The notes: generated by a model from the sequence alone, not told the origin. 64,000 nt of DNA from Malacoraja senta (GCA_038087875.1 CM075990.1:9984001-10048000); one strand, 5' to 3'. Positions 34,486 to 63,653 are shown, counted from the stretch's first letter. Numbers and translations: made by a program.

Positions 34486-35166
34486 AAAATATTTCCTTTG
34501 CATTCTGTGTGCCCTGATGGATGGTCTGGGTGGCTTTTATATGCAAACTAATTTGGATACAAACCAGAGGGGGAACCCCATTAGAAAGAAGCTTTCAGGC
34601 TATAATTGAATTTCTTCACTTGTTAGTTTGCAATGAAAATGTCATATTTTTCCGTGCCTCTATTCAGTGCAAATTAGATCTCGTTAGAAAGAAATGGTTT
34701 CTTGGCAAGGCATGAAACTCCTTGGAGTGGGCCTGTAACTATGCAGAGCAGCTGGAGACGGCTCCTCGACACACATGTGCTCCAGTTTGTCGAAGATGTA
34801 TAGACTTGTGAATTGCTATTCAGTGTGGCCTCCCCTCTCTGTCACAGGGGGTTAAGTCTGGGCCTTCTCCAGGGCAGCCATGCCGAAAATTTAGAGTGAC
34901 ACTTGAACAGGCTGCAGATAAGGGCCGGAGTTGTACACGAGCTTTATTGTGCACCGTTCCATTTTGTGAGCACACAAATCCAGTGTGTCGCGATGTGGGC
35001 AAGATACCTTTTTCTGCAGCAGGAGCTTATTCTCCTGCCCAGGCTGCGGGAACAATCTACAAATGCGATTAGCTTCGTATTTCAGAGGGTGAATGGAAAC
35101 CGCCGGCATTGATTTCCACTCTCTGCCACTGCACATCTCGCACAACCACTGTCACTCAGTCAGAAG
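34486..35166 (+). repeat. Long inverted repeat, arm A (681 bp)
   Basis: Reverse complement of 56575-57252. Manual alignment found about 15 substitutions and 2 small indels. Mirror ORFs appear in the track (34521+/57023-, 34891-/56596+). Confidence 0.97.
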
Positions 35167-38100
35167 TGATCCTACTTACCTAATGAATCACTGTGATAAA
35201 GAAACAACACCATGCTTAAACTAAATGAGACAGAAATGAAACGTTAGAAGCATCTTCTCTATTCTCGTTACACCATGATTATATTGTATGTCAACACTAT
35301 TGGTCAACTGAATTTTTAATAGTGAGGTATAGGGGGCCACTGACAAACATCAAATTCACAAAGTTAAATCTATGCACCTCACCTCACCCAAAGTGTTTGT
35401 CATCCAGATAATGATTGCATTCGCCAATTTATTTGTTCAGTGAACAGAGCGAAAGATTGTCATTGTATTTGCCATAAAACCCAAATCCTTGAAACGGTTT
35501 CAGCTGATAAACAGCTCAGAAGGGATTTTGAGAGTTGATCTGCAGACTGAGATTGTCTTTGAAGGCAAAACTAACACGTAATTGCCCAGGGAGGCGATAA
35601 CAATAATCGATTTCAGGACTCCCTTTATGCCAACGGTGTTCATGACATAACTGAACCCATTTGACCATGAGGTTCTGATCTTCGTTAGTTTGGCCAAGAT
35701 CATTCATGGCCATTTTGGACCTTGCAACCAATTTCTTCTCAAATGGTCTCAGACCTGATACATTACTCTGTCTCTTTTTCCACAGATGCTGTCTGTTCTG
35801 CTAAATGTTTCTTGCATTTTCTCTTTTTACTTCAGTTTTCTAGCATCAATATGCAGGAAATCTGAAACAAAATGCTGGCACCATCAAGGAAAGAGTTGAG
35901 TTTATAAGATCATAAGGTTATAAGGAATATGAGTAGATTTAGGCCATTTGGCCCATCAAGTCTACTCCGCCATTCAATCATGACTGATCTATCTCTCCCT
36001 CGTAACCCCATTCTCCTGCCTTCTCCCCATAACCTCTGACACCAGTACTAATCAAGAATCTATGACATATAAGTCTCTTTGTTTTGTGAAATTTTAGGTG
36101 TAATTTATGTGGAATTTACATATAATTTAATTTTGTGTGTTTGTCTGAGTTTGTTGTACTGCTGTAAGCAAGATTATCTTTGTACCTGTACCTCACCGCA
36201 CTTGTGCATATGACAATAAGGTCATCTTGACTTGACTTGACTTAATTATTCGAGTGTATCTGCAAGAAATAACATAGTACCATCAGCATTAGGTTACAGG
36301 ACATCATATTACAAAAGATTGTATCAATCACATTGTTAAAGGCTGATATATAAGCGGTATCTTTCATGAATTCAGAAAATTAGCAGGTAATTTACAGCCA
36401 ATGAAGTAATTTCAGTAATAGAAGGAAATGTAGCAGGGACATTATGTATAGTAAACCCCCACAAAAGGTAATTAAATATTCTCTATTGGACACATTTTCC
36501 AAAATATCAGCATTGATTAAGAAGCTAGAAGTAAGTTATTGAAGCATTGCAATGGGATATTTTACCTTCACCCAAGGAATCATCGGCAGCTTGGTTTAAA
36601 GTTTAATGTGAGCAGAAGCATTTGGGACAGCACAACATTCCCCTAGTGTCTTGCTGGAAATGATAGCAAGTCAAACTTGCTTTCCCTTTGTAGAATCAAG
36701 TAACTATAGATGCTCACAAAAAGCTGGAGTAAATCAGTGGGACAGGCAGCATCTCTGGAGAGAAGAAATGGGTGACGTTTCGGGTCGAGACCCTTCTTCA
36801 GACTATAGATGCTAGTTTACCAACAACAGACGATGGAGCCCGACCCAAAACATCACCTATTCATATTCCCCAGGGAACACTTTGTGTAATACAGCACTTT
36901 GTGTCCTTCCCTTGCTTTCACTTTTTCTCAATTCTGATGAAAGCTCTTTGAGGTGAAACTTTATCTGTTTCGCTTTTCCTCAGATGCTGCCAGACTGGTT
37001 GGGTTCTTCCAGCATTTCTGCTTTTGGCTCAGCTTTGCAGCTAATGTTTACATTTTTTATGGAATTTTAAAATTGCTTGGCTAATTCTAAAAAAAAATCA
37101 CAGACCACATATTTTTTAATGCAGAAAACAAAAGATCTCAATTGTATTTATTTGTGCTTCTGAGAGAAGTTCTGGAAAAGCTGGTACGTTTTTTAAATCT
37201 AAATGTGGGCAGAGACAGAGTTGTTGGATTTTGAGTCTCGCGTCTGAATCTTTACAGGGGGCTCCGATTGAAAGTGATATCATGGGGAGGGTCATTGATT
37301 TTTGATGAGGGTTTAATCTGAACCCAATAGAGGCTGAGAGCTAAATCCCAGGCTGCAACAGATGGGCTTTATCATGTGTTCATCGGTAAACTGAGGAGAC
37401 ATCTGCACACGAGAGGCACTGGTGGTCCAGACCACTGCAAGGGGATTGAGGGGGGATTTGTGTCGGCTCTTTGCAAAAGAGAACACTTATTAGGCAGGGT
37501 TCAAAATGGCTCATAAATCCTCTCACTCGTTGACGAAAAAATAAGCTGAAGACAAAAAAGCAAAATCAAGGGTCAAGGTAGATGTTCTCTTGCTGGTGAG
37601 TCAGCGTGGATGAGCTCAAACCTTTCCTTTGTGTGAGGGCTCTCTAGGTTTTGTGTGTGTGAGAGGGGTGCTGTAAGATCGGATCTGTCGATTGCATTCA
37701 AATCATCACCCCCAGCATCCAATCCATCATTAAAAGGACAGGAGGGTAAAGCACCACTTCAGCTAATTGGAATAATCCTGTGTAGAGTCATGTGACAATA
37801 GGGCCAGGACTGGAAGGCGTTGATAATTATGGTAATTCTAAGCTATTCAGAAAGCTGGATAAACTCGAACGCTTTGGAAGGTGTGAGGAAATGGGCAACC
37901 CACATGGCTATTAAGCATAGTTCCACGCAGCTACTCAGTGAAAAGGTTTGCAAGCATTAGTTTGCTATCAAACATACTTTGTGTGGTATTGTGGCGGTCT
38001 GTACTCTCAACACCACAAAACACTGGGGCCTCGTGAGGGAATCTGCGCTGGTATAAATTTAATCAAATAGGTTTTAATTTGAATACACAGAATAAAAAAT

Positions 38101-41100
38101 GGGCTCAGACAAACTTTAATAAGCTTTACGGGGAGATGGCTTTCTAATAGACATGAAGTCAGTAACTCATTTTGCCCTAGGACTGAATTCAATCTTTCCC
38201 ATGTGCATATTATAATACAGAATGGATAATAAAGAATGAACTGTTTACACTGCTTTACAAAAGTATAATTGTCATGTACAAAAGAAAAATTATCCACAGA
38301 GGTGTGAACTTTTGTTTTATTACATTGATAATGGAATTTCACTGCTGATTTAGGAAACGCATTCCATAATCCCAGTGACCAATCCATGACTGATAGTGAG
38401 TGCATTAATAGATCATATATCGCAGAAGGAGGCCATTCAGCCCATTATGGAGACACAAGACATTGCAGATGCTAGAATCAGGAGCTAAAACATACTGCTG
38501 GAGGAACTCAGTGGGTCGAGCAGCATCTGTGTCTCGATCCACAATAATTCCTTTCCCCCAACTACCACCCCTCCCACCACCCAGATATGCTCAGCCCACT
38601 GCGATCCTCCAGCAATCTGCTTTTTGATTCAGCTGAGTATGTCTGCACTTTACTTTGCTAAGAATGCCTCCGTTTAGTCATGGTGGCACAGCGGTAGAGT
38701 TGCTGCCTTACAGCAAAATGCAGCGCCAGAGACCCTGGTTCGAACCCGACTATGGGTGCTGTCTGTATGGAGTTTGTACGTTCTTCCCGTGGGTTTTCTC
38801 CGAGATCTTCGGTTTCCTCCCACACTCCAAAGACGGACAGGTTTGTAGGTTAATTGGCTTGATAAAAATGTAAAATTGTCCAAGTTGGCGATATGCAGAG
38901 TACTACCCTGCCGACTACAAAATTCAGAAGGTTCAGAAGGTTTACTCAACTCTTTCACCCTCTCTCTGTAGTTCGGTCATTTACACTATTCTCTCTTGAA
39001 AGTTAAAAATTTGAAAAAAAACCTGGCAGATGCTGGAAATCTGCAAAATAAAATTAAACTGCTGGAAATGCTCAGCAGATCAGGCAGCATCAGTGAAAAA
39101 TGAAACAAAGTTAATGTGTCAGATTGAAGTATTTTCTTCAATTTGCAGCATTATCTGTTTTTGTTTCTCTGGCAGCACACAGAAGACCAAGTGACAACCT
39201 CCTGCAATTCATGACCTGTTTCAGTCAGAATTGTAAAGGTTCGGAATAGCATTCTGAATTTGGGTGAGCTTGGACTGTAAATTTTCAGAATGAAGGCCTT
39301 CCTTGTTGCTAATGGCTGAATTCAGTGACCAGTGACAGAGACTGATTCTGGAACTTTCTTGCTACCTCCTCCCCCACTCCCACACACAGCAATTCTCTAT
39401 CCACACAGTCTATAATCGCTATATCTTCATTTAAAGGATTCACACCAGCATCAGCTTTTCAACAAAGTACCTATAACAAAATTGGAACCTCCACCCATGG
39501 TCTATATCATCATTCCTCGCAGCTCCAGTTAACCAGGTTCCATTCTGACCTCCGATGTTGTTTCGATGTAAGTTCTCTCGGTGAACACATGGATATATTC
39601 CAGGTGCTCTGTCTTCCTTCCACATCCAAAAAATGTATGGGTCGATAGATTAATGGACCCAGGTTTGTTGGTGAGTGGGAGACACTGGGGTGGGATGAGG
39701 CAGGAGAGCGAGTCGGAATGTGGAAAGAATAAAATGGGATTAGTGCAGGATTAGTGTTATGGGTTGGCGCAGACTCAATGGGCCTAAGGACCTGCTTCTG
39801 TGGCATATTTCTCCGTTATATGAAGCAGATAAAAGTGAACCCAGCAATTTTTCATTAAAAGGGATTTGGAGATTTGCATAGACCGAGAGCTGATCTGAGC
39901 AGTTTTAGACGAGAGAACATGGGAGAACATGGACTGTATAGGATATGGACAAGGCGTCAGGAACTATGATTTAAAGGATGCAGGTTACATGACACCACCT
40001 GGTTTGGCTCTACTATATTCTTAGCAATTGATCAGATTATGGGCAGTTACTGGAAGGACATCGCTTAGAAATTCAATTGATCCCATGTAATTGAAAATAA
40101 TTTTGTTGTCTGGTGTATCAACCACTTTTGGGTCATTACTTGTCACTTAGAACATTTAAGTTGCTGTTTTGACTAGGGATAGGAAGTTAAGCTCATTTAA
40201 GAACTCAACACCCATTTACAGTCAGGGGAATGATCATTGGCCTTGTGGATCATATTCCCTGGTGTACTATGATCAAATCCTTCACATAAGCACAGCTTCT
40301 ATCTAATGAGTGCACAAATATTTCTGGGCGCCCTTTGTTGTAATAGAAACTGAAAATGCTGGAAACCTCAGCAGGTCAGGCAGCATCTGTGGAATGAGAA
40401 CTGAAGCAAGGTCTTCAACCTGAAACCTTAACTGGTTCTCTTTCCACAGATGCTGGCTGACCCATGGAGTTTCGCTAGCATTTTATGTTTATATTTCAGT
40501 TTTCAGCATTTTTCAGTTTTTAATTTTTTTCCTGATTTTCATTTACCCTTTAATAAATGTTATCATGACAAAAGTATTTGAATAGCTAATATCCTGCCAA
40601 TAATCAATTAAAATCATTCGACAGGAGACAAAACATATGAATTTTTAAAATAGATTTATCAGAATGCTGCGTTGATTAGAGGTTTTCCGCTACAGGGAGA
40701 GGTTGGATAGACCTGGATTATTTTCTTGTGAACATCAGAGATTGAGAGGAGACTTGATGGAAATATATGTAATTATGAGTGGCATGGACAGTCAGAACCT
40801 CTTTCCCTGGGTGAAAATGGCTAACACTAGAGGGCATAATTATAAGGCAAGAGGGGGAAAGTCGAGTGAAGATGTGTGGGTGAGTTTTTTACATGAAGAA
40901 AAATGGGGGCCACATATGCATTGTCAGTGGTAGTGATGGGGGCCGATACGATGAATCGTTTAAGAGGCTTTTAGATAGACACATGGTGTGCATGCAGAAA
41001 TGGTCAATTTAACTTGGCACAAACATGTTTGGCACAAACATTGTGGGCCAAAGAGTCTGTTGCTGTGCTGCACTGTTCAATGTTCTATTCATGCCAATTA

Positions 41101-41849
41101 TACTTTTGCAAATGTAAAGTTAGCACAAATTTAGATATGACAGGGTCATTTAAGGGACTTTTACATAGACAAGTGGATATGCACATGGATGGATATGGAT
41201 CACGTGCAGGCAGAGAATACTAGTTTAACTGGGAATCATGTATGGCAGAGACATTGTGGGTTGAATGGCCTGTTCGTGTGCTGTACAGTAACTAAAATGG
41301 CTGTAGCTTAAAAAAAAAACTATTTTGAGGTGTGATCAAGAATTAAACAGGCATGCAACAAACTTTGGGAGCTAATAGAAGATAGATAGAATATCAAGTC
41401 AAGAGTGTTTTATTGTGCTGGAGTATATGAATATGCTGGAGTAACAGCGGGGCAGGCAGCATCTCCGGAGAAAAGGAACGGGTGACGTTTCGGGTTGAGA
41501 CCCATCTTCAGATTAGGGGTTACTATCTTAATTTTGGATTAAGTTATCAGTGAAATGAATAAAATTATATATCCATTTAAAATCTCAACGGAGTTCTGAT
41601 TTTTCAGTTTGCTAATGGGGTTAGGCAGAGAATGCTTCCCCCTGGTGGAGCAGTGGAGTTATAGTAGCTGTTTAGATTTGGATAACTCTTAAATTCTGTT
41701 GCTTTATGCTACACTGAACACAGTAGTCAAAGCAAATTACTTTGAATAAGGAATTAGAAATCAATTCAAATGTAACTAAATTGTAATTTTATCATGGGTT
41801 AATATATTGCAAATACAAGTTCAAATGCCCTTTGGAATACTTCATGTAG

Positions 41850-42380
41850 GGGGACATCTTCACGTTGTACATTAATGATTTGGATAAGGGAATTGAAGGC
41901 TTTGTATGTAAGTTTGCAGATGATATGAGGTTAGGTGGAGGGACACGTAGTATAGAGAAAGTAGGGACTCTGCAGAAGGACTTGGACAAGTTGGGGGAGT
42001 GCGCAGAGATGTGGCGGATGGAAATGGAATAGAACGTAGCAAAGTGTGAGGTCATGCAACATGGTAGTAGAAATAAAGGCAATGACTATTTTCCAAATGG
42101 GCAGAGAATTCAGAAATCAGAGGTGCAGAGGGACTTAGGAGTGCTGGTGCAGGTTTCCCAAAAAGTTAATTTGCACGTCGGATCGGTAGTAAGGAGGGCA
42201 AATGCAATTCTAGCATTTATTTCGAGAGAACTAGAATATAAAAACAGGTATGTAATGTTGAGGCTTTATAAGGCACTGGCCAGACTGCATTTGGAGTAAT
42301 TTTTGGCCTCATATCTGAGGAAATATGTGCTGGCGTTGGAGGGTCCAAAGGAGGTTTACGAGAATGATCCCAGGAATGAT
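41850..42380 (+). mobile_element. CR1 LINE RT fragment
   Basis: KFADD-encoding region followed by RDLGVLV..LYKALARLHLE. Confidence 0.88.
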
Positions 42381-45300
42381 TGGGTTTTCTCCGGGTGCTC
42401 CAGTTTCCTCCCACACTCCAAAGACCTACAGGTTTGTAGGTTAATTGGCTTTGGTAAAATTGTAAATTGTCCCTTGTGTTACTTTATGGGGTGATCGTTG
42501 GCCAGTGTGGACTTGGTGGGCGAAAGTGCCTGTATCCACGCTGTATCTCTAAATTGGCTCAGCAAGAGAAGACAGAGTGCGATGGTAGAGGGGTATTTTA
42601 GATATAACAACATTGTAATATTTTCACTTTCAATTACTTGGTGTATTTCAATTACTTACACACTTCTCTTTGGTCGTGTGGTTGGGCGATAATGTTAAAA
42701 GCTGCACTTAGCGTAATTTAACATTGAATTATGATCAAGTCAAATGATCTAAATTAGGGTTACAGGTAGAGAACAATTAGGCACAGATTTAGCAGAATGG
42801 TACCAGCGATTCAAGGATTAGATTACATTGTGCGGAATGTTCCATGCAACAAAATAACTGAGAAGTGGTTTCCTGATGTGTGAGATATCTGGGTTATTCT
42901 GGTTATTGCTCGAGGTTGCCCCAAATTGGCTGCCAAAAGCAAAGGCAGCCAGTCAGGAAAACTGTTAGAACACAAATTGCTGGAGGAACCCAGTGATTCA
43001 GGCAGCCTCTATGGAGCTGTCGGTTTTCTTGCTTAACATTCCATCATCTGCAGTCTCTTGTGTCACCAAAATAGTCCTGCAAGAATTCAGTGAAGTTGTA
43101 TCAGAGTCACCTATTTTCCTTTTATTCCTTCTCTTTCCTGTCCCCTTCCATGCATATCCCTCCTTCCGGCTTTACATTTCACTCCTCTTCTCTCCTTTCT
43201 GACACTCACTTGTATCCTTTCCTTCTCTAGACTTTGTCATTTACTCCACTCATCTGCCAATCCAATCCAATCCTAATCTGTTTCTACCTATCACTTACTA
43301 AGTTTACTACTATTATCACAGGAAATATTGATTGTATAGGAATGGAACAAGGCCACAATCCTGCCCATTAATCTCTTTATTTTTTTATTTCAAAAACATA
43401 CTTTATTCATAGTATATATAGTGATATACAATTGTTACATGTGTTTCTCTATATGAATTTACCCTTAATTTAATGCATTCTCTTGCAATGTGTCGAGACC
43501 GCACATGCTTTCGCCATAAACAATGCATCTGTGTGGTGTTTGGGAGTTTGTTACAGCAGCACAGTGGTGCAGTGGTAGAGTTGCAGCCTTACAGTTTGTT
43601 CCTGACTATGGGTGCTGTCTGTACAGAGTTTTTACGTTCTCCCTGTGACCACATTGGTTTCCTCCTACACTCCAAAGACGTACAGGTTTGTGGGTTAATT
43701 GGCTTCTGTAAATTGTCCCTAGTGTGTAGGATAGTGCTAGTGTACGGGGAGATCGCTGGTCGACACGGACTCGGTGGGCCAACGGGCCTGTTTTTGCTCT
43801 GTATCTCTAAAGTCTAAAGTAATGTCTAAAGCACATCACCAGTGCCAACAGTATCCTAGACTCTGGTCCTTCCCCAGAGAGGCTTCGCAATGGCTACAGC
43901 AAGCATCAGTGTGACCCTCAACACATATTCCTACACCTAGGAATGTGCCTGTCAGCAGTCTTCACTTGCGGACATCTCCTTACACTGGAGGACCATCATG
44001 TTTTGACAGACCAAAGTGTGCGCTTCACCGAGTTGATGATCTTCCAGAAGCTTCCGATGATTGTCTCACTATGTGCCCCTGTGGTCAACCCACAGACACA
44101 GAGCTCTCTCATGCAGCCACTTAGGTCAAATCTTGACAAGAATCATTGAACCCTTTTCCAGATCTTCTTGGCAAATGCACAGACCAAAGGCTGGTGGACG
44201 ATTATCTTATCCACACCACAGTGTGCATGAAGGATATGTGGGAGGTCCCTCCCACTGTCATCCATACAAGGTCTTCGTGCTTCTTTGTAAATTCGGGTGA
44301 TGAGGCATTCTTCTAAATGTCTTTGTCTGTTCTGGAATCCATCCCATATGATCTATTGACATGATCTATCACCCAGAGAATTGTGAATCTGTGGAATTCT
44401 CTGCCACAGAAGGCAGTGGAGGCCAATTCACTGGGTGCATTCAAGAGAGAGTTAGATAATTCGTATGGCTAACGGAATCAAGGGATATGGGGAAAAAGCA
44501 GGAACAGTGTACTGATTCTGGATGATCAGCCATGATCATATTGAATGGCGGTGCTGGTTCAAAGGGCTGAATGGCCTACTCCTGCACCTACTTTCTATTA
44601 TTCTATGTTTCTATTGTCTGCTTCTCCTGTTGTTTTTGCAGGACATTCTGTGCTGACCACTGCCTCGTGCTCAAAGGTGTTTTTTTTGCACTCACTTTTC
44701 TATGAAAGACATGTAATGCAGCAATGTCCAGGAGAGGTCAAGCCCATCTTTTGCAACATTGGGATTAGGTAGAATCTCAGCACAGTGGCCTTTGGTGTTT
44801 GTGCAACCAGGCTCAAACACCTTGATGTAGCCACACATAAGGTTGTATCAGGAATGGAGCAGCGTTGAGTGCATTATTCCATCCCTTTTCTCTGCAGGTA
44901 TGTACATCACAACTCTTGGAGAATTCATCAAAGAACCTTTCTAACCTAACCTCCTGATACACCAATATGGTCCACATTAGAATCTGAGATCCTTGACTCT
45001 TCCCCATCTCTATTTTTATGAAGTTGGATTCACTGTAGGATGAGTCGATGTTTTATAAATTACAATTTCAATCTTTTCTACCATCAGAACAATGGCTTTG
45101 ATTTTAACCATTTCCACCCATCCTCCTGGGCCATCATCTCATCACCTAACTTTATGGCAGTCTTAGCCCTCCCTGATCCTACATGCCATGGACATCACAC
45201 AAGAGTTACTAGACTATTGATCCCCGACCAAGAGGTGGGAGTACAAATCTGAAAGGAATTTAAATTCAAGTAATAAATGAATTTGGAAAGTTTTTAAAAA

Positions 45301-45559
45301 AAAAGCCAATTTCTGGAAGGCTGTGGTGAGGTCTGGAATGGAGTCGTCTTGGCAAACACCCCCAAACTAATGTAGATTGTGATGTGGTTTGTAGCACTGA
45401 ACAAGAAAACAGTTTATTGTCGATGATACCATCCACTACTTTGATGATGATTGAGAGCAGGCTGATTGGGCAATAATTAGCTGGATTGGATTTGTCCTGC
45501 TTTTTGTGACTAGGATACAGATTAGCTGAGCATGGTTAAACAATTTTCCACATTGTCAG

Positions 45560-45835
45560 GTAGCATGGAGGCCTGACCTTTGAAGTGGAATTGAAAGATC
45601 CCATGACTCCTATTTTAAAGAGGACCACCCAGTGTCCAATATTTATTTCTCAATCAAATTAGTAAAACAGATTATCTGGTCATTATCTCATTGGTATCTG
45701 CTTTGTGAAAATTGGCTGCTGCATTTCCTATGTTACGATCATCTACACTTCAAAAGTACTTCACCGGTTGAAAAGTGTTTTGGCGTGTCCTGAAGTTGTG
45801 GAAGGAGTTAACGAAATGTAAATCTTCCTTTTTCT
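45560..45835 (+). mobile_element. Deu-domain SINE (SacSINE1/AmnSINE1-like)
   Basis: CAGATTATCTGGTCATTATC..AATTGGCTGCTGCATTTCCTA..CACTTCAAAAGTACTTCA Deu-domain motifs. Degenerate copies at about 1420-1700, 36380-36660 and 46500-46750 (minus strand). Confidence 0.75.
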
Positions 45836-46759
45836 TTAAGAAAAAGAACTATTGCGAGTTGCTAATACTTTAATAGATTCTAAGATTGGATTGATTTGAG
45901 CACAGTGGCTCTCACGTAGAGTTTGAAAATTGTTCTCCTCAGCGTGTAATGAAAATAACCGAATTAACTCCTCATTGGAATGGCAGCTCAGTAACTAGGG
46001 GTCAATCTGCAAAGGGCAGCTCCTTGGAGCTTAAACTAATCTTAACTGGGTTTCCAAACTAAAATAAAAGTCTCGAACAGAACCTGCAACAGGAGGAGGA
46101 GGGGGAGGGGAAATTATCGAACAATGAGCTGAAGCTAAATTTGAAACATCAACATGTCCCAGACCTGCATTAACCCAAGCCTTTATTTGCAATGTAGTTT
46201 GTAGCACTGAACAAACCCAGGCTTCTGTTCATTGAAAGGAGAGCCATTGTCTGGCGTGGGGGTCTGCACGTCTTGTCTTCCCCACTATTAATCCTTCATG
46301 TGTCCGAGTTACAGCAGCACATCTTCTGCAGAAATGTATTACTGCCAACTCTACCTCTCTACAATAAGTTCCATTCACCTGGTCAGAAAAGAAATACAAA
46401 ATACACAGTGCTAAAAAAATGCCCAGAAGGATATACTGCTTACTTTATTCATGATTGACAGGCAAGTATCAGAAGCAAGACTGCTGCGTAAAATACAGAT
46501 GAAGAAGGCACACTTATTTTGCACCCTTCACTATACGTCAGCATTCTAGCACGCTTTACAACCAAGGCAGTTTCTGAAAGGTAGTCAGCACAGCCACAGG
46601 TTTGCATGCAGCAAGATCACGTGAACAGTATTGGGATATTGACCAGATATTTGTCACGTTGAGCAAGATATAGGTATTGTCATAACACAATTAAAATTGT
46701 CCTGCGCTTCAAAGTAGTTCGAGGCTGGGAGTGCTTTAGCAGCTAAATCGGACAGATGA

Positions 46760-47010
46760 CCTCTGACAGTGCAGCACTCTCTCAGTATTACCCCCTCATA
46801 GTGTGTTTGCCCTCAGTAAAGCCCCACCCACAGTGCGCTTCAGGCCCATTGCGGCCCCTCCACAGTGCAGCACTTGCAAAGTATGACCTCTCCCACAGTG
46901 CTACACTCCCTCAGTACCTCCCTCCCACAGTCCAGCTCCCCCTCAGTACTGCCCCTCCCTCAGCGTGGCACTCTCTCAGTGCAGCACTCCTTCAGTACTC
47001 CCTCAGTCCA
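46760..47010. repeat. Degenerate tandem repeat of about 30 bp (CAGTGCAGCACTCCCTCAGTACTGCCCCTCCCA-like)
   Basis: Several imperfect units are visible. Confidence 0.7.
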
Positions 47011-48009
47011 GTTCATTGTCTCTTAGGTAAACCATTAACCTGTGGCATTCTTTTTCATGAGGTCAGTGTGTTTCCCCCTCACCCACAACTGACTTCAATA
47101 AACAGCAAGCTCTGAACAAGCTTAAATGGTACACTTGAGTCCTTGTTGGTAAGTGAGATTCATGGGACTTAGATATGAAAGGGCTGGAATGGGGAATGGA
47201 ATGGGAAGTATGACGCAGTGTAATCTATACCCATTTCATCTGAGGCAACGTGTATTGGTCGCTAATACAAGAGCCACAGGAGTCCAGGATTCTGAGAGCG
47301 CGGACACCAACTGCAGAAAGATTCTAACTAAAACCGAAAATGATGAAAAATACTGGCAGTTTCCTCCAGTAGCCATCCTCTGGGGAAAAAACCTTTGTTT
47401 CAGATCTCCCTTAAATTCTCTCCCCGCCACCCCCCATCCCTCACCCCCCATCCCCCCTCCTCCCCATGCCCCCAACTATAAACCTGTTCCCTCTAGTTCT
47501 AGGCTCTCCTGATTTGGCTTTTTTAAAATTATATCTATGCCCCTACAAATCTATACAAGGTCAGCCTCTTACGTTCAAGTAAGAATAAACTTAGTTGACA
47601 CAATCTTCCCTTATAATTAGAGTCATAGTCATAGAGTGATACAGTGTGGATACAGTGTGACCCAACTTGCCCACACCGGCCAACATGTCCCAGCTACACT
47701 AGTCTCACCTGCCCGCGTTTGGTCCATTTCCCTCCAAACCTGTCCTATCCATCTACTTGTCTGCTTCTTAAATGTTGGGATAGCCCCTGCCTCAACTTCC
47801 TCCACTGGCAGCTTGTTCCATTCATGCACCACCCTTTGTGGTGTTTACAGCCTTCCATTCCAGGCAACATCCTGGTGAATCTGTTCTGCATTCTCTCTAT
47901 TGCTGCATTCCACATTATTCGTGTAACGTGTGACCAGAACTGTACATCATAGTGTGGTCTAATGAATGTTTTGTACTGCTGCAACATGATGTCCCAACTG
48001 TTATACCAA

Positions 48010-48695
48010 ATAAGTTGGCGTGCAGGTACAGCAGGCAGTGAAGAAAGCTAATGGAATGTTGGCCTTCATAACAAGGGGATTTCAGTGTAGGAGTAAAGAG
48101 GTTCTTCTGCAGTTGTATAGGGCTCTGGTGAGACCACATCTGGAGTATTGCGTAGAGTTTTGGTCTCCTAATTTGAGGAAGGACATCCCTGTGATTGAGG
48201 CAGTGCAGCGTAGGTTCACGAGATTGATCCCTGGGATGGCGGGACTGTCATATGAGGAAAGATTGAAAAGACTAGGCTTGTATTCACTGGAGTTTAGAAG
48301 GATGAGGGGGATCTTATAGAAACATATCAAATTATAAAAGGACTGGACAAGCTAGATCCAGGAAAAAAAATGTTCCCAATGTTGGGTGAGTCCAGAACCA
48401 GGGGCCACAGTCTTAGAATAAAGGGGAAGCCATTTAAGACTGAGGTGAGAAAAAACTTTTTCACCCAGAGTTGTGAATTTGTGGAATTCCCTGCCACAGA
48501 GGGCAGTGGAGGCCAAGTCACTAGACGGATTTAAGAGTTAGATAGTGCTCTAGGGGCTTGTGGAATCAAGTGATATGGGGAGAAGGCAGGCACGGGTTAT
48601 TGATTGGGGACAATCAGCCATGATCACAATGAATGGCGGTGCTGGCTCGAAGGGCCGAATGGCCTCCTCCTGCACCTATTTTCTACGTCTATTTC
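48010..48695 (+). mobile_element. CR1 LINE 3' fragment
   Basis: ORF 48020-48319 (LYRALVRPHLEYCVEFWSP) plus CR1 3' UTR. Confidence 0.92.
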
Positions 48696-49843
48696 TAAAT
48701 GCCTTGGTGTACGAAGGCAAGCATACCAGATACCTTTGCCTCGACCCAAGCCACTTGTGTCAATACTTTCTGGAGCTATGAACCTGCACCCTGAGATCTT
48801 TCTGTACAACAACTCCTAAGGTTCCTGCCATTTACATAGCATAGGGGAATGAGATGAAAGCAGCCAATTTAATATGAAAGTGCCCATGTGGTAGCAGCTC
48901 CCACAAATAACCAGCTAATGATTGAGCAGCAATGAATTTTGTTCCATCAGTCTGAATTTGATTCTAACCCAGGATTAGATATCGATGCTCCAACATCATT
49001 TACACCATACAAGCATCATTCTAACTCTAACCATTGTCTTTGGTTGGAACCTGACCTCCCAGCCATGAGTCCTGTCTGGAATACTGGTTCTAGAGAATGA
49101 ATGGGAAATAATGAAATTGTACCAGGTTTTAGAGAGATATATGGCACAGATAATTGCCCCACCAAGTCTGCGCCAACCAGCGATCCCCATACACTAGCAC
49201 TATATCACACATTCGGGATAATTTACAATTTTACCAAAAACAATTAACATACAAACCAGTATGTCTTTGGAGTGTGGAAAGAAACTGGAGCACCCGTAGA
49301 AAATCCAGTCATGGGGAGAACATAGCATCCGTAGTCAGATTGAACCAGGGTCTCTGGCACTGTGAGGCACCAACTCTACAACTGCGCCACCATAACCATG
49401 AGTGCGCAATCGTACTGAGGATGTTTCTGCACCAACCAAAGACTACCGTGCTGTACACATAGAGCTGGAGGAACACAACCCAGTCAGATTCACATGCAAG
49501 ATGGACGGTGAAGAGAGAAGAAGATGATGTGACTGAATTGTTGAACTTCTCTAACTTGGGTGACTGTTAGCTTGAAATTAATGCCCGACAACATTACCCA
49601 TGTCCAGGAGTATTTTTTACAGTATGGACATTGCAAATATGGAAAACTCTCGCTATCACACTATACTTGCCTGGAGTTAACTGGAGCAAGGCTGATGCTC
49701 TTGAAGAAGATAATTGACACAATGTCAATGGCAGAGTGTTTAAACTGCACATCTGCCATAATTTAAATTGAATGGCAGCACAGGTTCCAGCAATGGTTCC
49801 TCCAGCTTGAATGAAACAATAACCAGTGAATAAGTATAATAGA

Positions 49844-49864
49844 TTTATTGGTAATAATTTTATT
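49844..49864 (-). terminator. Probable FAM241B polyadenylation signals (two AATAAA on minus strand)
   Basis: TTTATT at 49844-49849 and 49859-49864, at the end of an apparently TE-free stretch of about 830 nt downstream of the stop codon. Confidence 0.55.
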
Positions 49865-50689
49865 TCACACTTGTTTTAGTGCACAGAGAAATTGGCAATC
49901 GCCTCCCAATTCTTCCACCTTCAAAACACAAAATCCATTAAATCACAAAATCCACTCATTCAATGATCACATTGAGACTTGCCATTGTTTTGGTCCAGGT
50001 TTATTTAGTTAAATTTGATGTCTCCTGCTTTAATAGAACAGGCCACCAGATACTAATCCAGTAACTTCACCATGATCCACTGGTTAACACTCCCTCAAAA
50101 TGTAACAGTTATCTTAAAGTCCCATTCATTAACACAGGCATGAACAAAAGGAAGCTGTCGCCAAGATCTTAGCACCAGGCTGGCATGAATATTTGTCATT
50201 TGAGGTGACGACTCCTTCAGTAGAGATGGTTTGATGACGTGGAGAGGTATTGCATTCCTCTGCTCAGTCTTAGCTGAGGTGCACTGCTGACTGCTAACCA
50301 CAATGACGTGAGACACCGCACACGCCAGGCGGATCTCCCTCCAGGTGAGCCAGTTGGATTTTTAAGACAATCTGCTAACTTTTTGTTCAATCTTTTGTGT
50401 CACAGCTTCTTTTATTTTAAGTTTTGGTTGGCTGATTTGAATGAACTGGAAGATCAGCACTTGATGAATTTTAAAAGTAAAGATGCCCCTGAATGCACAC
50501 AAATTGAGCAGTGATTCCATCATCCGACAATGCACCAAATATTGCAGGAATCAAGCTGCTGATGGCTAAAACAAACTATTTTCCTTTGTAGAGTTAAAAT
50601 TGTAAGTGTATTTTCTTAAACGGTTTTATAAGGGGAAGGAGAAAAGAGTCATTGTACAGTCAGATATAAGTGCACCGCAATTCTTTCAG

Positions 50690-50935
50690 TTACCGTTGAC
50701 TAAACCGAGAGAAGAGGTATAGCCCACCGATAAGTACAAGGCCGCGCATTCCAAAAAACATTAGCATCAACACCACAAGGACGGACATGATGGGTTCGAT
50801 GACTTGATTTCCCAGATTCCAGCGTGGAAAGCCCATGTTGATCAAACGTTGATTCGCATCTGCAAACAGCGATTGCCCTTGGTTGACAGGCCCCATGTGA
50901 GGCTGGTTCGCATTGTCCGCATTACGGGTGAAACC
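50690..50935 (-). CDS. FAM241B: FAM241B last coding exon (C-terminal hydrophobic/TM region)
   Basis: Acceptor ttttgttag|G at 50935, phase 0. Reads GFTRNADNANQPH-MGPVNQGQSLFADANQRLINMGFPRWNLGNQVIEPIMSVLVVLMLMFFGMRGLVLIGGLYLFSRFSQR*. The MGFPxWxLGN..EP..S motif and terminal SQR* are typical of FAM241B. Joined CDS is 114 aa. Confidence 0.93.
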   Translation of the reverse strand, partial: GFTRNADNANQPHMGPVNQGQSLFADANQRLINMGFPRWNLGNQVIEPIMSVLVVLMLMFFGMRGLVLIGGLYLFSRFSQR

Positions 50936-53399
50936 CTAACAAAACAGAATGGAACGAGAGAAAAATCAGCATTCTGCCACGTTTCAAACTGATTCCAGGA
51001 ATTCACTCCCCATCCCTAATGAGCCCAAGGAAGCTATCTGGACCAGTTCAAATGGCAGTGAGGAACCAATCACAGTAGCACAGGCTGAACCTGGGGCGAG
51101 AGGCCTCAATCTATCCAGCATTCTCAATCCAGCATTCAAAGAGCTCATGGATGAACATCTGCACCCTTTTACTCAATTTCCTTCCCTCAGTACCTGTGCT
51201 AAATCAGAATCTGTCTATCTCTAGGTGTCATTGTGGGGATCTATGCCAGGGAAATAACACCTGTTTTAAGATAATAGAAGCAGTAACAGTGCATGGATCT
51301 CCACATGATACCCGAGTTACTGTTGGCAATGCCAGCACTGGGCCACAGATCCCAGTACATCAGCAAGTTCCCAGTAACTCAACTTTAACAGGAACACTTC
51401 AATTGCAGAAGATGGGACAAAGGGTCTGTTTCAGTGCTATATGATTTTACAACACTAAGATGGCTGCAATTTTATATCATCTTATGTTATGTTACCTAAT
51501 AATCCCGATGGCTTGCCTCCAAGTTGCAGTCAATGTCCCTTGGACTTATACTCCAGCAATTGGATTAGCTTTCCTCAGCCCACAATGAACTACAACCAAA
51601 ACATTCTTCCTGTATTAGTCTTACAGCTATATATGGAACAAGACAGCAGTTCCTAGCTATTAGACCCATTTGCATCACTATTCAATACAAATGTTGTGAT
51701 GAACAATATAAGTCAGGAATGTGCACTGAGAAACGGTAGTGTTCCTATCAGGAATGATCTTAATGTGGATGTAATTTCTGCAGATTAGTTACATCAGACA
51801 TTGATCATTTGTTAAATGAAATATTATCAATAGATCACAACATGTGAGCTTTGTTATTAATTCATAATTCAACAAGGAAATCAGGATAACTGTAGTCCAT
51901 GATCTAAAGTGCTTTAGCTGGCACATAGTTTTTAGAATTTATTAAAAATGCATAGTAGCAGTTTGCAGTGTGAACGGAGGAAGTGGAAAGAGGAGAGAGA
52001 TTTAAAGTATCCACGATTTCTTAAGGCATCTTCTCCCACTCAATGTTCTCTTGGGGACCGTTAGATTGTGGTGGATGGCACTTGAACATGGGTAGTTTCT
52101 CAGAATAAGGAATAGGTCATCTATACTGAGATGAGGAGAGATTATCACTCGAGGATGGGGAATCGTTGGAATGTTTAACCTCGGGAATTCTTGGACATTG
52201 CATTCATTCAAAATTTGTTCGATTTCTGGATTGAGAGGATGAAGAGATACGGGGATAGTGCAGAAAAATGAAGTAGAGACAGAAGATCAGCCATGATCAC
52301 GATGAAGAGCTTGAAGAAGGATATGGGCCAAAGGCAGGTCGGTGGGACTAGTGTAGATGGGAGATGTTGGCTGGTGTGGGCAAGTTGAGCCAAAGGTGTA
52401 GAAAGGAACTGCAGATGCTGGTTTAAACCAAAGACAGTCCCAAAATGCTGGTGTAACTCAGAAGGACAGGCAGCATCTCTGGGGAGAAGGAATGGATGAC
52501 GTTTTTGGTCGAGACCGAAGAGCTTGTTTTCACGATGTAAGACTCTATGACTCTAAAATAGGGCAAGCTCCTACGGTAGAGTGGCTCCTGCTCTCAATTC
52601 TTACATTCTCATGCATGGCTTGGTAATTAATGGTTTAAAGCTGTAGGATAGAATTGTGAACTGATTTTTATTTACACGGATTTGTGATTTCAATACATGG
52701 CCTGAAGGGATGATAGTACGATACGATAGAATAGATAAAACTTTATTCATCCCCGGAGGGAAATTGGTCTGCCGACAGTCACAACACACAAGGTACACAG
52801 AAACTTGAAATTAAAAGTGAAAACAAAAAGAAAAAGACTGTTGGCTGGCTGTTGTATGCACAGAGCCTTCACCGAACAAACAAACACAACCCTGGTCAGA
52901 GGATTCTAAACTAGAGTGCCCCCCTCCCTCGGGTTCTCCTTTGTTCTCCCACCGTCCCTCTACGCTGGGTCCCCACTGTCTTGAAACAATTCAAATACAA
53001 CTTGCAAAAAAAAAAAACAGGATAAATATTTGACAAGGAACCATTTGTTGTTCTTCAACTGGGATCTCCTCTGTCAGGAACTTTGTTGGTTATCCAAGAG
53101 AGCATGGACTTGCTGGCCATACCACAGAGTGAAAGGGTGCATCACAGATAGATGCAAAGAGCAAGCTTTTGAAGGAATACCTTGTGTTGGAATGGGGATT
53201 TCCTAGTCTCCTCTAACTAGAATGTCAGCAGTCACGGAGACAGACCTGTGACCCTGAAGTTGGGGACGAGGGAAGGCAGGAAGAATAATTGGTGTCAACC
53301 TCAAGTGATGTCAGGATCCCATGAATTTATGGGGTTCTTGTTTGAAAGCGTTAGGACACCAAATGTAACAATTTAAACAAGAACTTATAACTTGTTCAT

Positions 53400-54350
53400 T
53401 CGGGCGAGGCGGGAAGTGGGCAGGGGTGGAAGTGCAACGTTGCATTTTGTGAGCGCCATTCGATGCTAGTAAACAAGTTGTGAGGGCCTGGTCGCACTAG
53501 GATGGGCAGGGGGGTGACCGAGAAAAGCGCTCCCACCCTCCTCCCCAGTGTTGTGCACCGACCTGCCGGCCCCTGTTGAGCTCCTCTCGGCGCGGAGGCG
53601 CCTTCCTGACCCGGGGGTCGTCATCCTGCACAATGTCTCCGTTGGCCAGGATACGAACCATCCTCCCGCACCGAGGCCTGGGGAGGGGATGGGATGGGAG
53701 GGGAGGCGAGGGGGGGTGGGGGAAGGAGAGGAGAGAAGGGGAGAGTTGTTAAGGGAGCCGCCCGCAAGCGCTGCAGCGGACGGACGCGTCTGAAACAAAC
53801 AAGCTCCTGAGACCAGGCGCCGGGCGAGTCCTCTCCGCTGGCAGCGAGCGAGCGGCTTTGGCTGTGCCCAGCCACAGAGAGGAGGGCGTAGAGGAAATGC
53901 GAGTCATCGCAGGGGTGTTACAGGGAATAAACTCCCAGCGAGCTGTTGTGTTCCCTTCCGCAAACTCTCCGCTAAACCCAGTGTGTGTGGGTTAGCGCTT
54001 AGCGGCGGCAACAGACAGAGAGACAGAGAGACAGAGCCATCCCCTTACTGCACGGACCCCCACCCGCAACACCTTCAACCTGGTCTCTTTTAACTAAAAA
54101 TGCATACACAAGGGTTGCTAAATGAAACACGGAGGTTCATTTTATTCAGTTCCAAACCCGGCCCGGTTCACAGGGACAGGAAGGGAGGTGAGGCTGCGAG
54201 AGGGAGTGTTTTGCTCCTCTGGTATCGTTGGTGTTTTCCCCCAGAAATTCAATCACGCCGTTCAAGGCGCTCGCCTCAAATGGAGAGCCAGGAAACTGAC
54301 TTTCAACTGCATTCCTGGTGCAGGTGCCCTGGTGCGTTTCGCCCACCCCT
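53400..54350 (-). promoter_or_regulatory. CpG-island-like promoter / 5' region of FAM241B
   Basis: Locally GC- and CpG-rich, non-TE sequence overlapping and upstream of the first coding exon, within an otherwise CpG-poor window. Confidence 0.7.
53563..53661 (-). CDS. FAM241B: FAM241B (C10orf35-like small membrane protein), first coding exon
   Basis: Manual minus-strand translation gives MVRILANGDIVQDDDPRVRKAPPRREELNRGRQ, matching the FAM241B N-terminal motif MVRILANGxIVQDDDPRVR. The exon is 99 nt and ends in a CAG|GT donor (phase 0). A pyrimidine-rich acceptor (ccccag) puts the likely exon start at 53677. Not in the ORF track. Confidence 0.93.
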
Positions 54351-54595
54351 GTACCCCATCCTTTAAGCACCTTCCAAGTCAATGTTTTTAGTTCAGAGTT
54401 ACAGCATGGAAACAGGCCCTTTGGCCCACTGAGTCTGTGCTCACCAACAATCACCTGGACACTGGTTTTATACTACACACTAGGGACAATTTACAGAAGG
54501 CACTCAGAGAAAACTCGTGCGGTCACAGGGAGAACGTACAAACTCCATACAGACAGCACTCGTAGTCAGGATCGAACCTGGGTCTTGCGCTGTAA

Positions 54596-55104
54596 AAGGC
54601 CTGTCCCACTTGGGCGACCTAATCCGCGAGTTTGCCCTCGACTCATACTTGCAGCATGGTCAACAGGAGGTCGTTGGAGGTCTTCGTAACTCTCCTTCAT
54701 GCTTGAGAGTGGTCTCCGCGTACTCGAGGCCTCAGCTAGGTCGCGGCATTTTTTTCAATATGTTAAAAAATGCCCGCGAGTAAAAAAAGGTCGTCATGGA
54801 AATAATCAATACTTTTTTAACTCGTAGGTTTAATTGTAGTAAGTCGTAGTAGGTGGCATGTTAGTCGTAGGTAATCGACAGTAGTCGAAGGTAGTCGTAG
54901 ATAGTCTTCATCATAGTCGAAGGGAGGTCGAAGGAGGTCGTCTTCACTTTCCACTATTCGGTGTCCAATTTTCCGGAAGTTAGTCGTAGCTAGTCATAGC
55001 TAGTCGAAGCTGGTCTTCAACATAGTCGAAGGAGGTCTTCAACATGTCATTTTTTCAAACTCTTCTAAACTCGCCAATTAGGTCGCCCAAGTTGGACAGC
55101 CCCT
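54596..55104. mobile_element. Harbinger-type MITE inserted in a SINE
   Basis: TIRs AAGGCCTGTCCCACTTGGGCGACCTAAT..ATTAGGTCGCCCAAGTTGGACAGCCCCT with TAA TSD. The SINE sequence resumes at 55108. Confidence 0.85.
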
Positions 55105-55658
55105 TAAGGTAGCAACTCTACCACTGTGCCGCCCCCAGTTTGGAAAAGTCAGTATGGGATCGGGAATTTTAGGCAGCTGTCCCCCTGTGTGAGGTGTACT
55201 TCATTAGCTGACTAGCATTTGGAGATGTTATGAAAGAGAGATGGAAATGTTTTACAGAAAGGCAAGTCTTTCTTTGAGCATTTTATCTGTTTGTATTTAT
55301 CTACTTCATTTATTGTGGATTTCAAGCACGCACAGGTACATTAAAAGCACCAGTGCAGGAAAACTGCTGATGGTACTCCCTCGAGGTTTGTGCAACCTGA
55401 TTTAGTTTAGAGATACAGCGTTGTAACAGGCCCTTCAGCCCACCGGGTCCATGCTGATCAGCAATTGCCTATGCACCAGTTCTATCTTACACACTAGGGA
55501 CAATTTAAGAAGCCAATTAATCTACAACCCTGCACGTCTTTGGTATGTGAGAGGAAACTGGAGCACTCGGAGAAAACCACGCGGTCACAGGGAGAGCGTA
55601 CAAACTCCATGCAGACAGCACCGGTAGTCAGGATCGAACCTGGGTCTCTGGCATTATA

Positions 55659-56478
55659 AGTCAAGTCAAGTCACATTTATTTATATAGCACATAAAAAAC
55701 AACTCTCGTTGGCCAAAGTGCTTTACATTTGTTATAAGAATAGCACAAACAAAACAAACTACATATATATATATATACATGTAGCTCTCACTCAGAGGAC
55801 GTCAGGAAAGGCTTGGGAGTATAGATAAGTCTTTAGTCTTGACTTAAAAGAGTCGATGGAGGGGGCAGTTCTGATGGGAAAGGGGATGCTGTTCCACAGT
55901 CTAGGGGCTGCAACCGCAAAGGTGTGGTCGCCCCTGAGCTTATGCCTAGACCGTGGGATATTCAGCAACCCCAAGTCGGACGATCTGAGGGGCCTGGAGG
56001 TGGAGTGGTGGGTGAGAAGACTTTTTATGTAGGTGGGGGCAAGCCCATTGAGGGGTTTGTAGACATGGAGGAGGATCTTGAAGTTTATACGGAACCGCAC
56101 AGGGAGCCAGTGGAGAGAGGCCAGGATCGGGGTGATGTGGTCCCTTTTTCGGGTGCCCGTCAGGAGTCTCGCTGCGGCGTTTTGGACCAGTTGCAGGCGG
56201 GACAGGGAAGATTGGCTGATGCCAGTGTAAAGGGAGTTGCAGTAATCTAGGCGGGAGGAGATGAATGTGTGGATGATCTTTTCGAGGTCATCAAACTGGA
56301 GGAATTGTTTTATTTTAGCTATCGTCCGAAGCTGAAAGAAGCTAGCTTTCACCACGGCATTGACTTGTTTGTCAAATTTCAGTGCTGAGTCAAATATCAC
56401 GCCAAGGTTTTTGACGTGAGGTTTAAGTAGTGGGGTAAGGCTTCCAAGGCTGCCTGCTATCATTTTGATTGAGTCCGA
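55659..56478 (-). mobile_element. L2 LINE 3' fragment inserted in a SINE
   Basis: ORF 55792-56463 contains NLGVIFD..SRLDYCNSL..LQLVQNAAARLL..HITPILASLHWLPV; (TCAAG)n tail. Confidence 0.92.
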
Positions 56479-56574
56479 GGCAACAACTCTACAGTTGCGC
56501 CACTGTGTTGTCCTGATGTGTTACCTGAATCTGTTGTACACCAGCTATCCTGTCCTCCATGACTTCTCTTGACT

Positions 56575-57252
56575 CTTCTGACTGAGTGACAGTGGTTGTG
56601 CGAGATGTGCAGTGGCAGAGAGTGGAAATCAATGCAGGCGGTTTCCATTCACCCTCTGAAATACGAAGCTAATCGCATTTGTAGATTGTTCCCGCAGCCT
56701 GGGCAGGAGAATAAGCTCCTGCTGCAGAAAAGGTATCTTGCCCACATCGCGACACACTGGATTTGTGTGCTCACAAAATGGAACGGTGCACAATAAAGCT
56801 CGTGTACAACTCCGACCCTTATCTGCAGCCTGTTCAAGTCACTCTACATTTTCGGCATGGCTGCCCTGGAGAAGGCCCAGACTTAACCCCCTGTGACAGA
56901 GAGGGGAGGCCACACTGAATAGTAATTCACAAGTCTATACATCTTCGACAAACTGGAGCACATGTGTGTCGAGGAGCCGTCTCCAGCTGCTCTGCATAGT
57001 TACAGGCCCACTCTAAGGAGTTTCATGCCTTGCCAAGAAACCATTTCTTTCTAACGAGATCTAATTTGCACTGAATAGAGGCACCAATATAGATGACATT
57101 TTCATTGCAATCTAACAAGTGAAGAAATTCAATTATAGCCTGAAAGCTTCTTTCTAATGGGGTTCCCCCTCTGGTTTGTATCCAAATTAGTTTGCATATA
57201 AAAGCCACCCAGTCCATCCATCAAGGTACACAGAAAGCAAAGGAAATATTTT
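56575..57252 (-). repeat. Long inverted repeat, arm B (678 bp)
   Basis: Reverse complement of 34486-35166. Confidence 0.97.
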
Positions 57253-63617: not shown

Positions 63618-63653
63618 ATATGAATAAAAAGGCAAGCCAAGAAGTCCCGGCAA

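What the first reader, a model, noticed from the sequence alone, without database searches (positions are those of the whole stretch)
34486..57252. FAM241B sits inside a 21.4-kb cassette bounded by about 680-bp near-identical inverted repeats (candidate flip-flop invertible locus)
Seen: 34486-35166 and 56575-57252 are reverse complements (about 15 substitutions and 2 indels, about 97.5% identity). I found the arm sequence nowhere else in the window. It matches none of the local TE families, has no flanking TSD, and no transposase lies between the arms. The arms enclose the entire FAM241B gene, its CpG promoter and several enhancer-like blocks. Established: inverted repeats of this type can mediate recurrent inversion and concerted evolution, as at the eutherian FLNA-EMD locus. 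In mammals FAM241B lies between NEUROG3 and COL13A1. Inference: this may be a recombinational switch or recurrent inversion that re-orients a gene and its enhancers relative to neighbouring developmental genes.
Basis: partly seen in the sequence, partly recalled or inferred. Interest (0 to 1): 0.85.

Follow-up and report, generated by a model that had tools for sequence, protein, structure and literature searches.

The report
Twin conserved elements flanking skate FAM241B
A 680-base non-coding sequence sits in two opposite-facing copies on either side of the small gene FAM241B in a skate, the pair also turns up in DNA of related organisms and changes more slowly than the DNA beside it, so it is likely an old duplicated enhancer kept by selection rather than a working flip-flop switch.

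Summary
The inverted pair is real: 34486-35166 and 57252-56575, 97.4% identical, around a two-exon FAM241B that is 95% identical to the little-skate protein. Public DNA runs show the same two copies with the same borders in a second sample of this organism and in organism B, and by indirect signs in organism I. No further long copy was laid, so it is neither a dispersed repeat nor a misassembly. B's arm contig differs from the left arm at 6 sites, while the two arms here differ at 12 sites plus 2 indels over that interval. Eight of the 17 left/right differences are shared with other organisms, so they outlived a species split unconverted. The arm changed about four times more slowly than its flanks (6/681 against 35/998, P=0.0005). 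The longest identical run is 101 bp, a poor recombination substrate. Best reading: a likely enhancer copied once in inverted orientation, both copies kept by selection. Orientation in other animals could not be tested, so rare inversion is not excluded.

The parts
34486..35166 (+). Left arm (L), 681 bp non-coding conserved element; likely the parent copy
   Evidence: slow change against organism B (6/681 against 35/998 in flanks); no Rfam family at gathering score; no Pfam family above cut-off in 12 of its 21 stop-to-stop frames of 30 aa or more
34371..35293 (+). Wider slow-changing block around L: no listed substitution against organism B in the 115 bp outside and the 127 bp inside the arm (indels occur at 34427-34452)
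   Evidence: tables 3 and 4; the inner side rests on an inference, since 8 of B's 20 inner-flank differences are not listed
56575..57252 (-). Right arm (R), 678 bp inverted copy, 2.9 kb upstream of the FAM241B start codon
   Evidence: its outer and inner flanking letters appear as loose ends at the arm borders in runs X13 and X2 (table 7 compared)
53563..53661 (-). FAM241B coding exon 1 (33 codons, followed by a GT donor)
   Evidence: translation; total length 114 aa equals P0001
50690..50935 (-). FAM241B coding exon 2 (81 codons and stop), DUF4605
   Evidence: PF15378, E=8e-24; 95% identical to a cluster named FAM241B-like of Leucoraja erinacea
53250..54250 (-). GC- and CpG-rich promoter and 5' region of FAM241B (promoter role inferred)
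   Evidence: GC 0.57-0.64, CpG o/e 0.62-0.74 in 500-bp windows starting 53250-53750
55398..56512 (-). SINE split by a LINE fragment, lying between the promoter and R; separated from R by about 63 bp of unique DNA, so R is not fused to the LINE
   Evidence: the SINE and LINE labels are from recall of such elements, Pfam gave no hit for the ORF at 55795-56520
35167..56574 (.). Interior between the arms, 21,408 bp: FAM241B plus ordinary SINE and LINE fragments

Best explanation
The two arms are inverted copies of one non-coding element that is present twice in related organisms and changes slowly, and they are likely a duplicated enhancer-type element kept in both places by purifying selection, not a recombination switch. 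Shown: two copies, the same borders in organisms A and B, slow change of the arm, old left/right differences left unconverted in A. Inferred: one template-switch or repair event in a skate ancestor copied the 680-bp core of the element at L and placed it, reversed, 2.9 kb upstream of FAM241B; both copies would then act as twin (shadow-like) enhancers on FAM241B or on a developmental neighbour outside the window (NEUROG3 or COL13A1, if the human order holds). The inverted geometry would be a by-product of the copying event, since enhancers work in either orientation (established knowledge). Arm-to-arm conversion would be rare, and crossover inversion rarer.
For: (1) Both arms with the same borders in X13 (organism A; 30 of 30 loose letters match each R flank) and X2 (organism B; 29 of 30 and 28 of 30); X18 (organism I) has contig breaks at both borders, a second short contig at the inner border, and R-type letters (compared). 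(2) Arm against flank in B: 6/681 (0.9%) against 35/998 (3.5%), Fisher P=0.0005; in I, letters found in neither A arm are 4-7 of 631 against 35/1105, P=0.0003-0.009. (3) On the branch to A, at most 9 changes in 1359 arm bases against 14 in 803 flank bases, P=0.03. (4) Orthologue closer than paralogue: over 34515-35166 B's contig differs from A-L at 6 sites and 0 indels, A-L from A-R at 12 sites and 2 indels. (5) 8 of 17 L/R differences (34627, five at 34646-34653, both indels; 4 separate events) are L-type in B and R-type in I, so they are older than at least one species split (tables 3, 4). (6) 20 of 23 listed runs, under 9 organism labels, hold 0.52-1.00 of the arm's sampled 31-letter words; L and R share only 0.57. 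(7) No coding or structured-RNA signal. (8) Slow change seems to run past L's borders but not past R's inner border (2 changes in 30 letters in B), which fits L as parent. (9) Duplication signatures are common among mouse shadow-enhancer sets, 33.9% (PMC13345019, passages).
Against: Enhancer function is inferred from constraint only; none of 17 recalled transcription-factor motifs was enriched at P<0.05 over 500 resampled sequences. Constraint on R alone is weak: at most 6 changes against 11.8 expected, binomial P=0.05, Fisher P=0.11. The baseline is 1 kb of flank beside L, not the genome. The contigs collapse the two arms, so which arm a letter belongs to in B and I is inferred, and B's two arms might be more alike than A's. 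At 34954 both A arms have one letter and B and I another, which may be a conversion. X13 shows L-type letters at 34891-34925 inside an otherwise R-type path (assembly choice or a conversion tract). X1 (organism A, depth 5.85) shows no R junction. That the B and I copies lie inverted around FAM241B is inferred from flank letters, not seen. The target gene is unknown.
Confidence: 0.58

Rival explanations
1. FLNA-EMD-like system: old inverted repeats that are homogenised by gene conversion and now and then cross over, so that FAM241B flips again and again in skate lineages.
For: The pair is old and keeps its borders across organisms. One site, 34954, is shared by both A arms against B and I. B's collapsed contig could mean near-identical arms in B. 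Recombination between matches under 50 bp is reported for repeats 5 kb apart (PMC2583991, passage). Conversion biased to the ancestral state can slow arms (PMC3723533, abstract).
Against: Within-species arm divergence exceeds between-species divergence, the reverse of primate X palindromes (<0.2% within, 0.87-5.5% between; PMC8327919, passage). 8 of 17 differences outlived a split. The longest identical run is 101 bp, below the 134-232 bp range over which recombination fell 20-fold in mouse cells and the 300-500 bp estimated for human meiosis (PMC2583991, passage). Repeats at the 22 candidate human inversions are 1.6-32 kb, FLNA-EMD 11.3 kb (PMC3961182 Table 1). X1 has one contig running outer flank, L, inner flank as in the window. 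B's contig is L-type and I's is R-type at all 4 old events, the same phase as here (weak, since the contigs are collapsed).
Confidence: 0.14
2. Scar of a single ancient inversion: staggered breaks inverted the FAM241B segment once and left an inverted duplicate of one breakpoint sequence at both ends; selection then kept both copies.
For: The geometry (unique sequence, inverted, at the two ends of a gene-bearing segment, sharp borders, no target-site duplication) is what this mechanism leaves; 17 of 29 Drosophila inversions show it (PMC1885836, abstract).
Against: It predicts that each copy keeps only one ancestral neighbour, whereas slow change appears to continue on both sides of L (0 listed substitutions in 115 + 127 bp against B; post hoc, with indels on the outer side). 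No outgroup with a single copy was available.
Confidence: 0.14
3. Only L is functional; R is a chance duplicate made shortly before these species split and is decaying neutrally or sits in slowly mutating DNA.
For: R-only constraint is marginal (P=0.05-0.11); both indels shorten R; X1 shows no R junction.
Against: I's contig carries R-type letters and differs from A-R at 5-11 of 631 sites (0.8-1.7%) against 3.2% in flanks; R keeps both borders intact in A and B; R's own flanks differ in B at 3 of 60 loose letters, like ordinary flank.
Confidence: 0.12
4. Dispersed repeat, terminal inverted repeats of a transposon that captured FAM241B, or an assembly artefact.
For: Length (about 680 bp) and spacing resemble the terminal repeats of large DNA transposons (recalled).
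Against: At 80% likeness only 2-8 contigs per run were laid and none adds a third long copy; both R junctions occur in other samples; no target-site duplication; the interior holds an intact intron-containing host gene and ordinary retro-element fragments.
Confidence: 0.02

Closest known systems
Shadow or twin enhancers born by local duplication (PMC13345019, passages)
   Same: A non-coding element present twice in one gene neighbourhood, with body similarity, no flank similarity, and both copies apparently constrained.
   Different: Enhancer activity is untested here; the copies are inverted and bracket a whole gene; 97% identity over 680 bp comes from slow change rather than a recent origin.
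FLNA-EMD inverted repeats, human palindrome P24, inversion HsInv0389 (PMC3961182 Table 1 and passages; PMC8327919 passages; Caceres et al. 2007 seen only as cited there)
   Same: Inverted repeats flank intact genes and persist across related species.
   Different: Arms are 0.68 kb against 11.3 kb and 97.4% against above 99% (the palindrome criterion in PMC8327919); here orthologous arms are closer than paralogous arms; no second orientation seen.
Inverted duplications at staggered-break inversion breakpoints (PMC1885836, abstract)
   Same: Unique sequence duplicated in inverted orientation at both ends of a segment.
   Different: No inversion is shown here, and the weak evidence puts both ancestral flanks at L.
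Site-specific invertible switches (Hin, Fim, shufflons; recalled)
   Same: Inverted sequences bracket a gene and its promoter.
   Different: Those use short recombinase sites and a dedicated recombinase; none was recognised, and gene and promoter would flip together here.

Membership tests
FLNA-EMD-type recurrent-inversion palindrome | Inverted repeats flank the gene(s) | tested here: met
FLNA-EMD-type recurrent-inversion palindrome | Both arms persist across species | tested here: met
   both junctions in organisms A and B, indirect signs in I; arrangement around the gene inferred
FLNA-EMD-type recurrent-inversion palindrome | Arms more alike within than between species (concerted evolution) | tested here: not met
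   6 sites and 0 indels (A-L against B contig) against 12 sites and 2 indels (A-L against A-R); 8 of 17 differences shared across organisms; B and I contigs are collapsed
FLNA-EMD-type recurrent-inversion palindrome | Long, near-perfect identity fit for ectopic crossover (kilobases, above 99%) | tested here: not met
   681 bp, 97.4%, longest perfect run 101 bp; compare PMC3961182 Table 1 and PMC2583991
FLNA-EMD-type recurrent-inversion palindrome | Both orientations occur among individuals or species | not testable with these tools
   Only assembled contigs were served; they break at the arms. X1's single contig has the window's arrangement at L
Duplicated conserved element / twin enhancer | Low copy number, local duplicate | tested here: met
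   two copies in the window; no third long piece among 2-8 contigs per run at 80% likeness; no whole genome to search
Duplicated conserved element / twin enhancer | Non-coding, no known structured RNA | tested here: met
   Rfam 0 hits at gathering score, best E=0.59; fold z -1.48 and -0.93; Pfam nothing above cut-off in 12 of 21 frames
Duplicated conserved element / twin enhancer | Slower change than neighbouring DNA | tested here: met
   P=0.0005 for B's contig; P=0.03 for both arms on the A branch
Duplicated conserved element / twin enhancer | Second copy (R) constrained on its own | tested here: inconclusive
   binomial P=0.05, Fisher P=0.11 in the worst case; I contig against A-R 0.8-1.7%
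Duplicated conserved element / twin enhancer | Enhancer activity on a shared target gene | not testable with these tools
   needs chromatin or reporter data; motif scan not significant
Staggered-break inversion scar | Outgroup has one copy and the opposite orientation of the interior | not testable with these tools
   all three organisms laid show signs of two copies
DNA transposon with long terminal inverted repeats | Target-site duplication, element-encoded enzymes, dispersed copies | tested here: not met

The most novel reading that the evidence does not exclude
A non-mammalian counterpart of FLNA-EMD in which the inverted arms are themselves a conserved enhancer: selection on enhancer function preserves a recombination substrate for the whole skate radiation, and occasional conversion and crossover flip FAM241B and the 21-kb interior independently in different lineages, rewiring contacts with developmental neighbours. 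Site 34954, the L-type tract in X13 and the possibly homogenised arms of organism B leave this open.
Probability: 0.14. Interest if true: 0.7.

Novelty: new member of a known kind. Interest (0 to 1): 0.36.

Why it matters
If the best reading holds, this is a clean, datable case of an enhancer-type element duplicated in place and kept twice in a slowly evolving vertebrate group, with a short list of fixed differences between the copies that can be tested in a reporter assay. It would be a lineage-specific regulatory gain near, if the human order holds, NEUROG3 and COL13A1. It also shows that 97% identity between inverted arms can come from selection and need not mean recent duplication or gene conversion. 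If both orientations were found, it would be a rare non-mammalian recurrent-inversion locus.

Tried and rejected
No whole genome is held, so no genome-wide BLAST and no synteny. Earlier findings of the scan: 0 by place, by sequence and by words. Rfam: 0 at gathering score in the window, 2 chance-level hits near the arm. Folding of either strand not unusual. Pfam on 12 of 21 arm frames: nothing above cut-off. Internal repeats at the arm ends: no terminal inverted repeat of a MITE. Idea that R is a LINE-chimeric retrocopy: rejected, 63 bp of unique DNA and a SINE 5' piece lie between R and the LINE. Idea of convergent CTCF sites: best match to the recalled core has 3 mismatches, no better than resampled sequence. 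Motif enrichment: 0 of 17 recalled motifs at P<0.05. Similarity between the four flanks: only a known repeat in the two L flanks. Collagen-triplet and bHLH scans of the window: no exon of COL13A1 or NEUROG3. One exact 30-letter arm pattern in metagenome contigs: 0 matches. No RNA holder listed; this says nothing on expression. Contig depth over the arm was 1.4-2.0 times flank depth, but the tool states it is no copy number and X13 overshoots the expected 1.57, so it was not used to estimate arm identity or orientation. A 3-letter match at R's junction is within chance and was not used. The exon-1 stretch was in the wrong frame and its blank is ignored.

Full report
Observation. The pair is real. 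Self-BLAST gives 34486-35166 against 57252-56575, 97.36% over 681 columns, 15 mismatches and 2 gaps, far above any other repeat pair in the window. Borders are sharp, no third copy exists in the window, and the longest identical run is 101 bp. Between the arms lies a two-exon gene on the minus strand (CDS 53661-53563 and 50935-50690). Exon 2 matches DUF4605 and is 95% identical to a protein named FAM241B-like of Leucoraja erinacea, 78% to Narcine and 69-75% to sharks and Callorhinchus (11 hits of 12 candidates). The window is therefore from a skate. R lies 2.9 kb upstream of the start codon and L 15.5 kb beyond the stop codon. No exon of NEUROG3 or COL13A1 was found in the window. The human order TSPAN15, NEUROG3, C10ORF35, COL13A1 appears in one passage of PMC5612749; that C10orf35 is FAM241B is recalled and agrees with the names. 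Synteny in the skate is untested.

What the arm is not. Rfam gives nothing at gathering score, neither strand folds unusually (z -1.48, -0.93), 12 of 21 reading frames scanned give no Pfam family above cut-off, and there is no target-site duplication. R is not fused to the nearby LINE: 63 bp of unique DNA and the 5' piece of a SINE lie between them (element names recalled).

Other samples. No genome is held, so I used public runs. 20 of 23 listed runs, under 9 organism labels, hold 0.52-1.00 of the arm's 67 sampled words; L and R themselves share 0.57 of their 31-mers. Four of the 23 runs were laid on 34060-35740 at 80% likeness; all are assembled contigs. X13 (organism A, a second sample, identical to the window in L's flanks and so possibly its source) has loose ends exactly at 34486 and 35166 whose 30 letters match R's outer and inner flanks in full. 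X2 (organism B) has the same two loose ends, matching at 29 and 28 of 30 letters. Only 2-8 contigs were laid per run and none adds a third long copy. So the pair is not an artefact, not a dispersed family, and older than the splits between these organisms, whose flanks differ from the window by 3.2-3.5%. Against this, X1 (organism A, depth 5.85) gives one contig through outer flank, L and inner flank, and no R junction; low depth can explain that, loss of R in that animal cannot be excluded.

In converting palindromes arms differ less within than between species (<0.2% against 0.87-5.5%, PMC8327919, passages). Here it is the reverse. Over 34515-35166, B's contig differs from A-L at 6 sites and no indel, while A-L and A-R differ at 12 sites and 2 indels. 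Four separate L/R differences (34627, the cluster 34646-34653, and both indels; 8 of 17 differences) are L-type in B and R-type in I. Whatever the tree, they are at least as old as the youngest split and stayed unconverted in A. Differences that look new in A (34525, 34815, 34925, 35105) also sit in one arm only. One site points the other way: at 34954 both A arms differ from B and I, which is either one conversion or one change on a B+I stem. Because contigs collapse the two arms, B's arms could be more alike than A's, and X13's L-type stretch at 34891-34925 could be a conversion tract or an assembly choice. The table of differences also left out 28 rows, mostly those of X18; I bracketed the unknown sites.

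Why the arms stay alike. They change slowly. Against B: 6/681 in the arm, 35/998 in the flanks (P=0.0005). Against I: 4-7 of 631 letters found in neither A arm, 35/1105 in the flanks (P=0.0003-0.009). On the branch to A: at most 9/1359 against 14/803 (P=0.03); L alone P=0.002-0.015, R alone P=0.05-0.11. Unbiased conversion does not lower the substitution rate (established theory), and conversion frequent enough to do so through an ancestral-state bias (PMC3723533, abstract) would have erased the old differences. Purifying selection is the simpler cause. Slow change seems to extend 115 bp outside and 127 bp inside L, while R's inner flank differs at 2 of its first 30 letters in B. This suggests L is the parent and R a trimmed copy; the test is post hoc, the outer side has indels, and the inner side assumes the 8 unlisted B differences lie further on.

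Mechanism. Most likely one copying event placed an inverted copy of a conserved cis-regulatory element upstream of FAM241B, and both copies were kept as twin enhancers (0.58). Origin, enhancer role and target are inferred; no motif was enriched (0 of 17). As a recombination substrate the pair is poor: 101 bp of perfect identity is below the range where recombination drops 20-fold in mouse cells and below 300-500 bp estimated for human meiosis, though much shorter matches work at close range (PMC2583991, passages); repeats at 22 candidate human inversions are 1.6-32 kb (PMC3961182, section 6 with Table 1). Rivals are recurrent inversion with conversion (0.14), a one-off staggered-break inversion (0.14; PMC1885836, abstract) and a neutral R (0.12). 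Orientation could not be read in B or I.

Novelty. [quoted passage not shown] I found no paper on this locus in skates in four searches of the open library (one search matched 2,359 papers, of which 12 were listed, none naming FAM241B; one search matched 206, 12 listed). Subscription papers are missing from the library and no supplements were read; genome-paper supplements could list the element. Verdict: a real, shared, constrained inverted pair, a new member of a known kind, with a small chance of being a non-mammalian recurrent-inversion locus. Interest 0.36.

Noticed in passing
run X1, window 34060-35740: The run holding 100% of L's words shows L in one contig with both L flanks, all L-type letters and no trace of R's junctions; low depth, or R missing in that animal.
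   Followed up: partly
window 34646-34653: Five of the 15 L/R substitutions lie in 8 bp. The L form is complementary to the arm's own outer end (inverted pair I1), which suggests one template-switch mutation. L form seen in B, R form in I.
   Followed up: partly
window 34129-34156 and 34416-34435: Two short matches (28 and 20 bp) fall, 783 letters apart, on one other contig in X1, X13 and X18 (table 5). Possibly chance, possibly a distant paralogous region.
   Followed up: no
window 34889-34920: A 32-bp stretch of the arm matches another contig in X13 with 2 differences; not seen in the other three runs.
   Followed up: no
window 55398-56512: A SINE interrupted by a roughly 820-bp LINE 3' fragment with an open frame of 242 codons, between the FAM241B promoter and R; a nested insertion useful for dating.
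   Followed up: partly
window 63355-63830: LTR-retrotransposon-like start: DUF7041 ORF (E=2.8e-13) followed by a tandem array of an 18-bp unit.
   Followed up: no
window 11200-12250 and 27800-28780: Repeat-poor stretches that look like further conserved non-coding blocks by eye; conservation not tested.
   Followed up: no
Several shark proteins of this family and length are named FAM241A by their sources and others FAM241B-like, so public naming of the two paralogues in cartilaginous fish is inconsistent; orthology here rests on the nearest hits.
   Followed up: no
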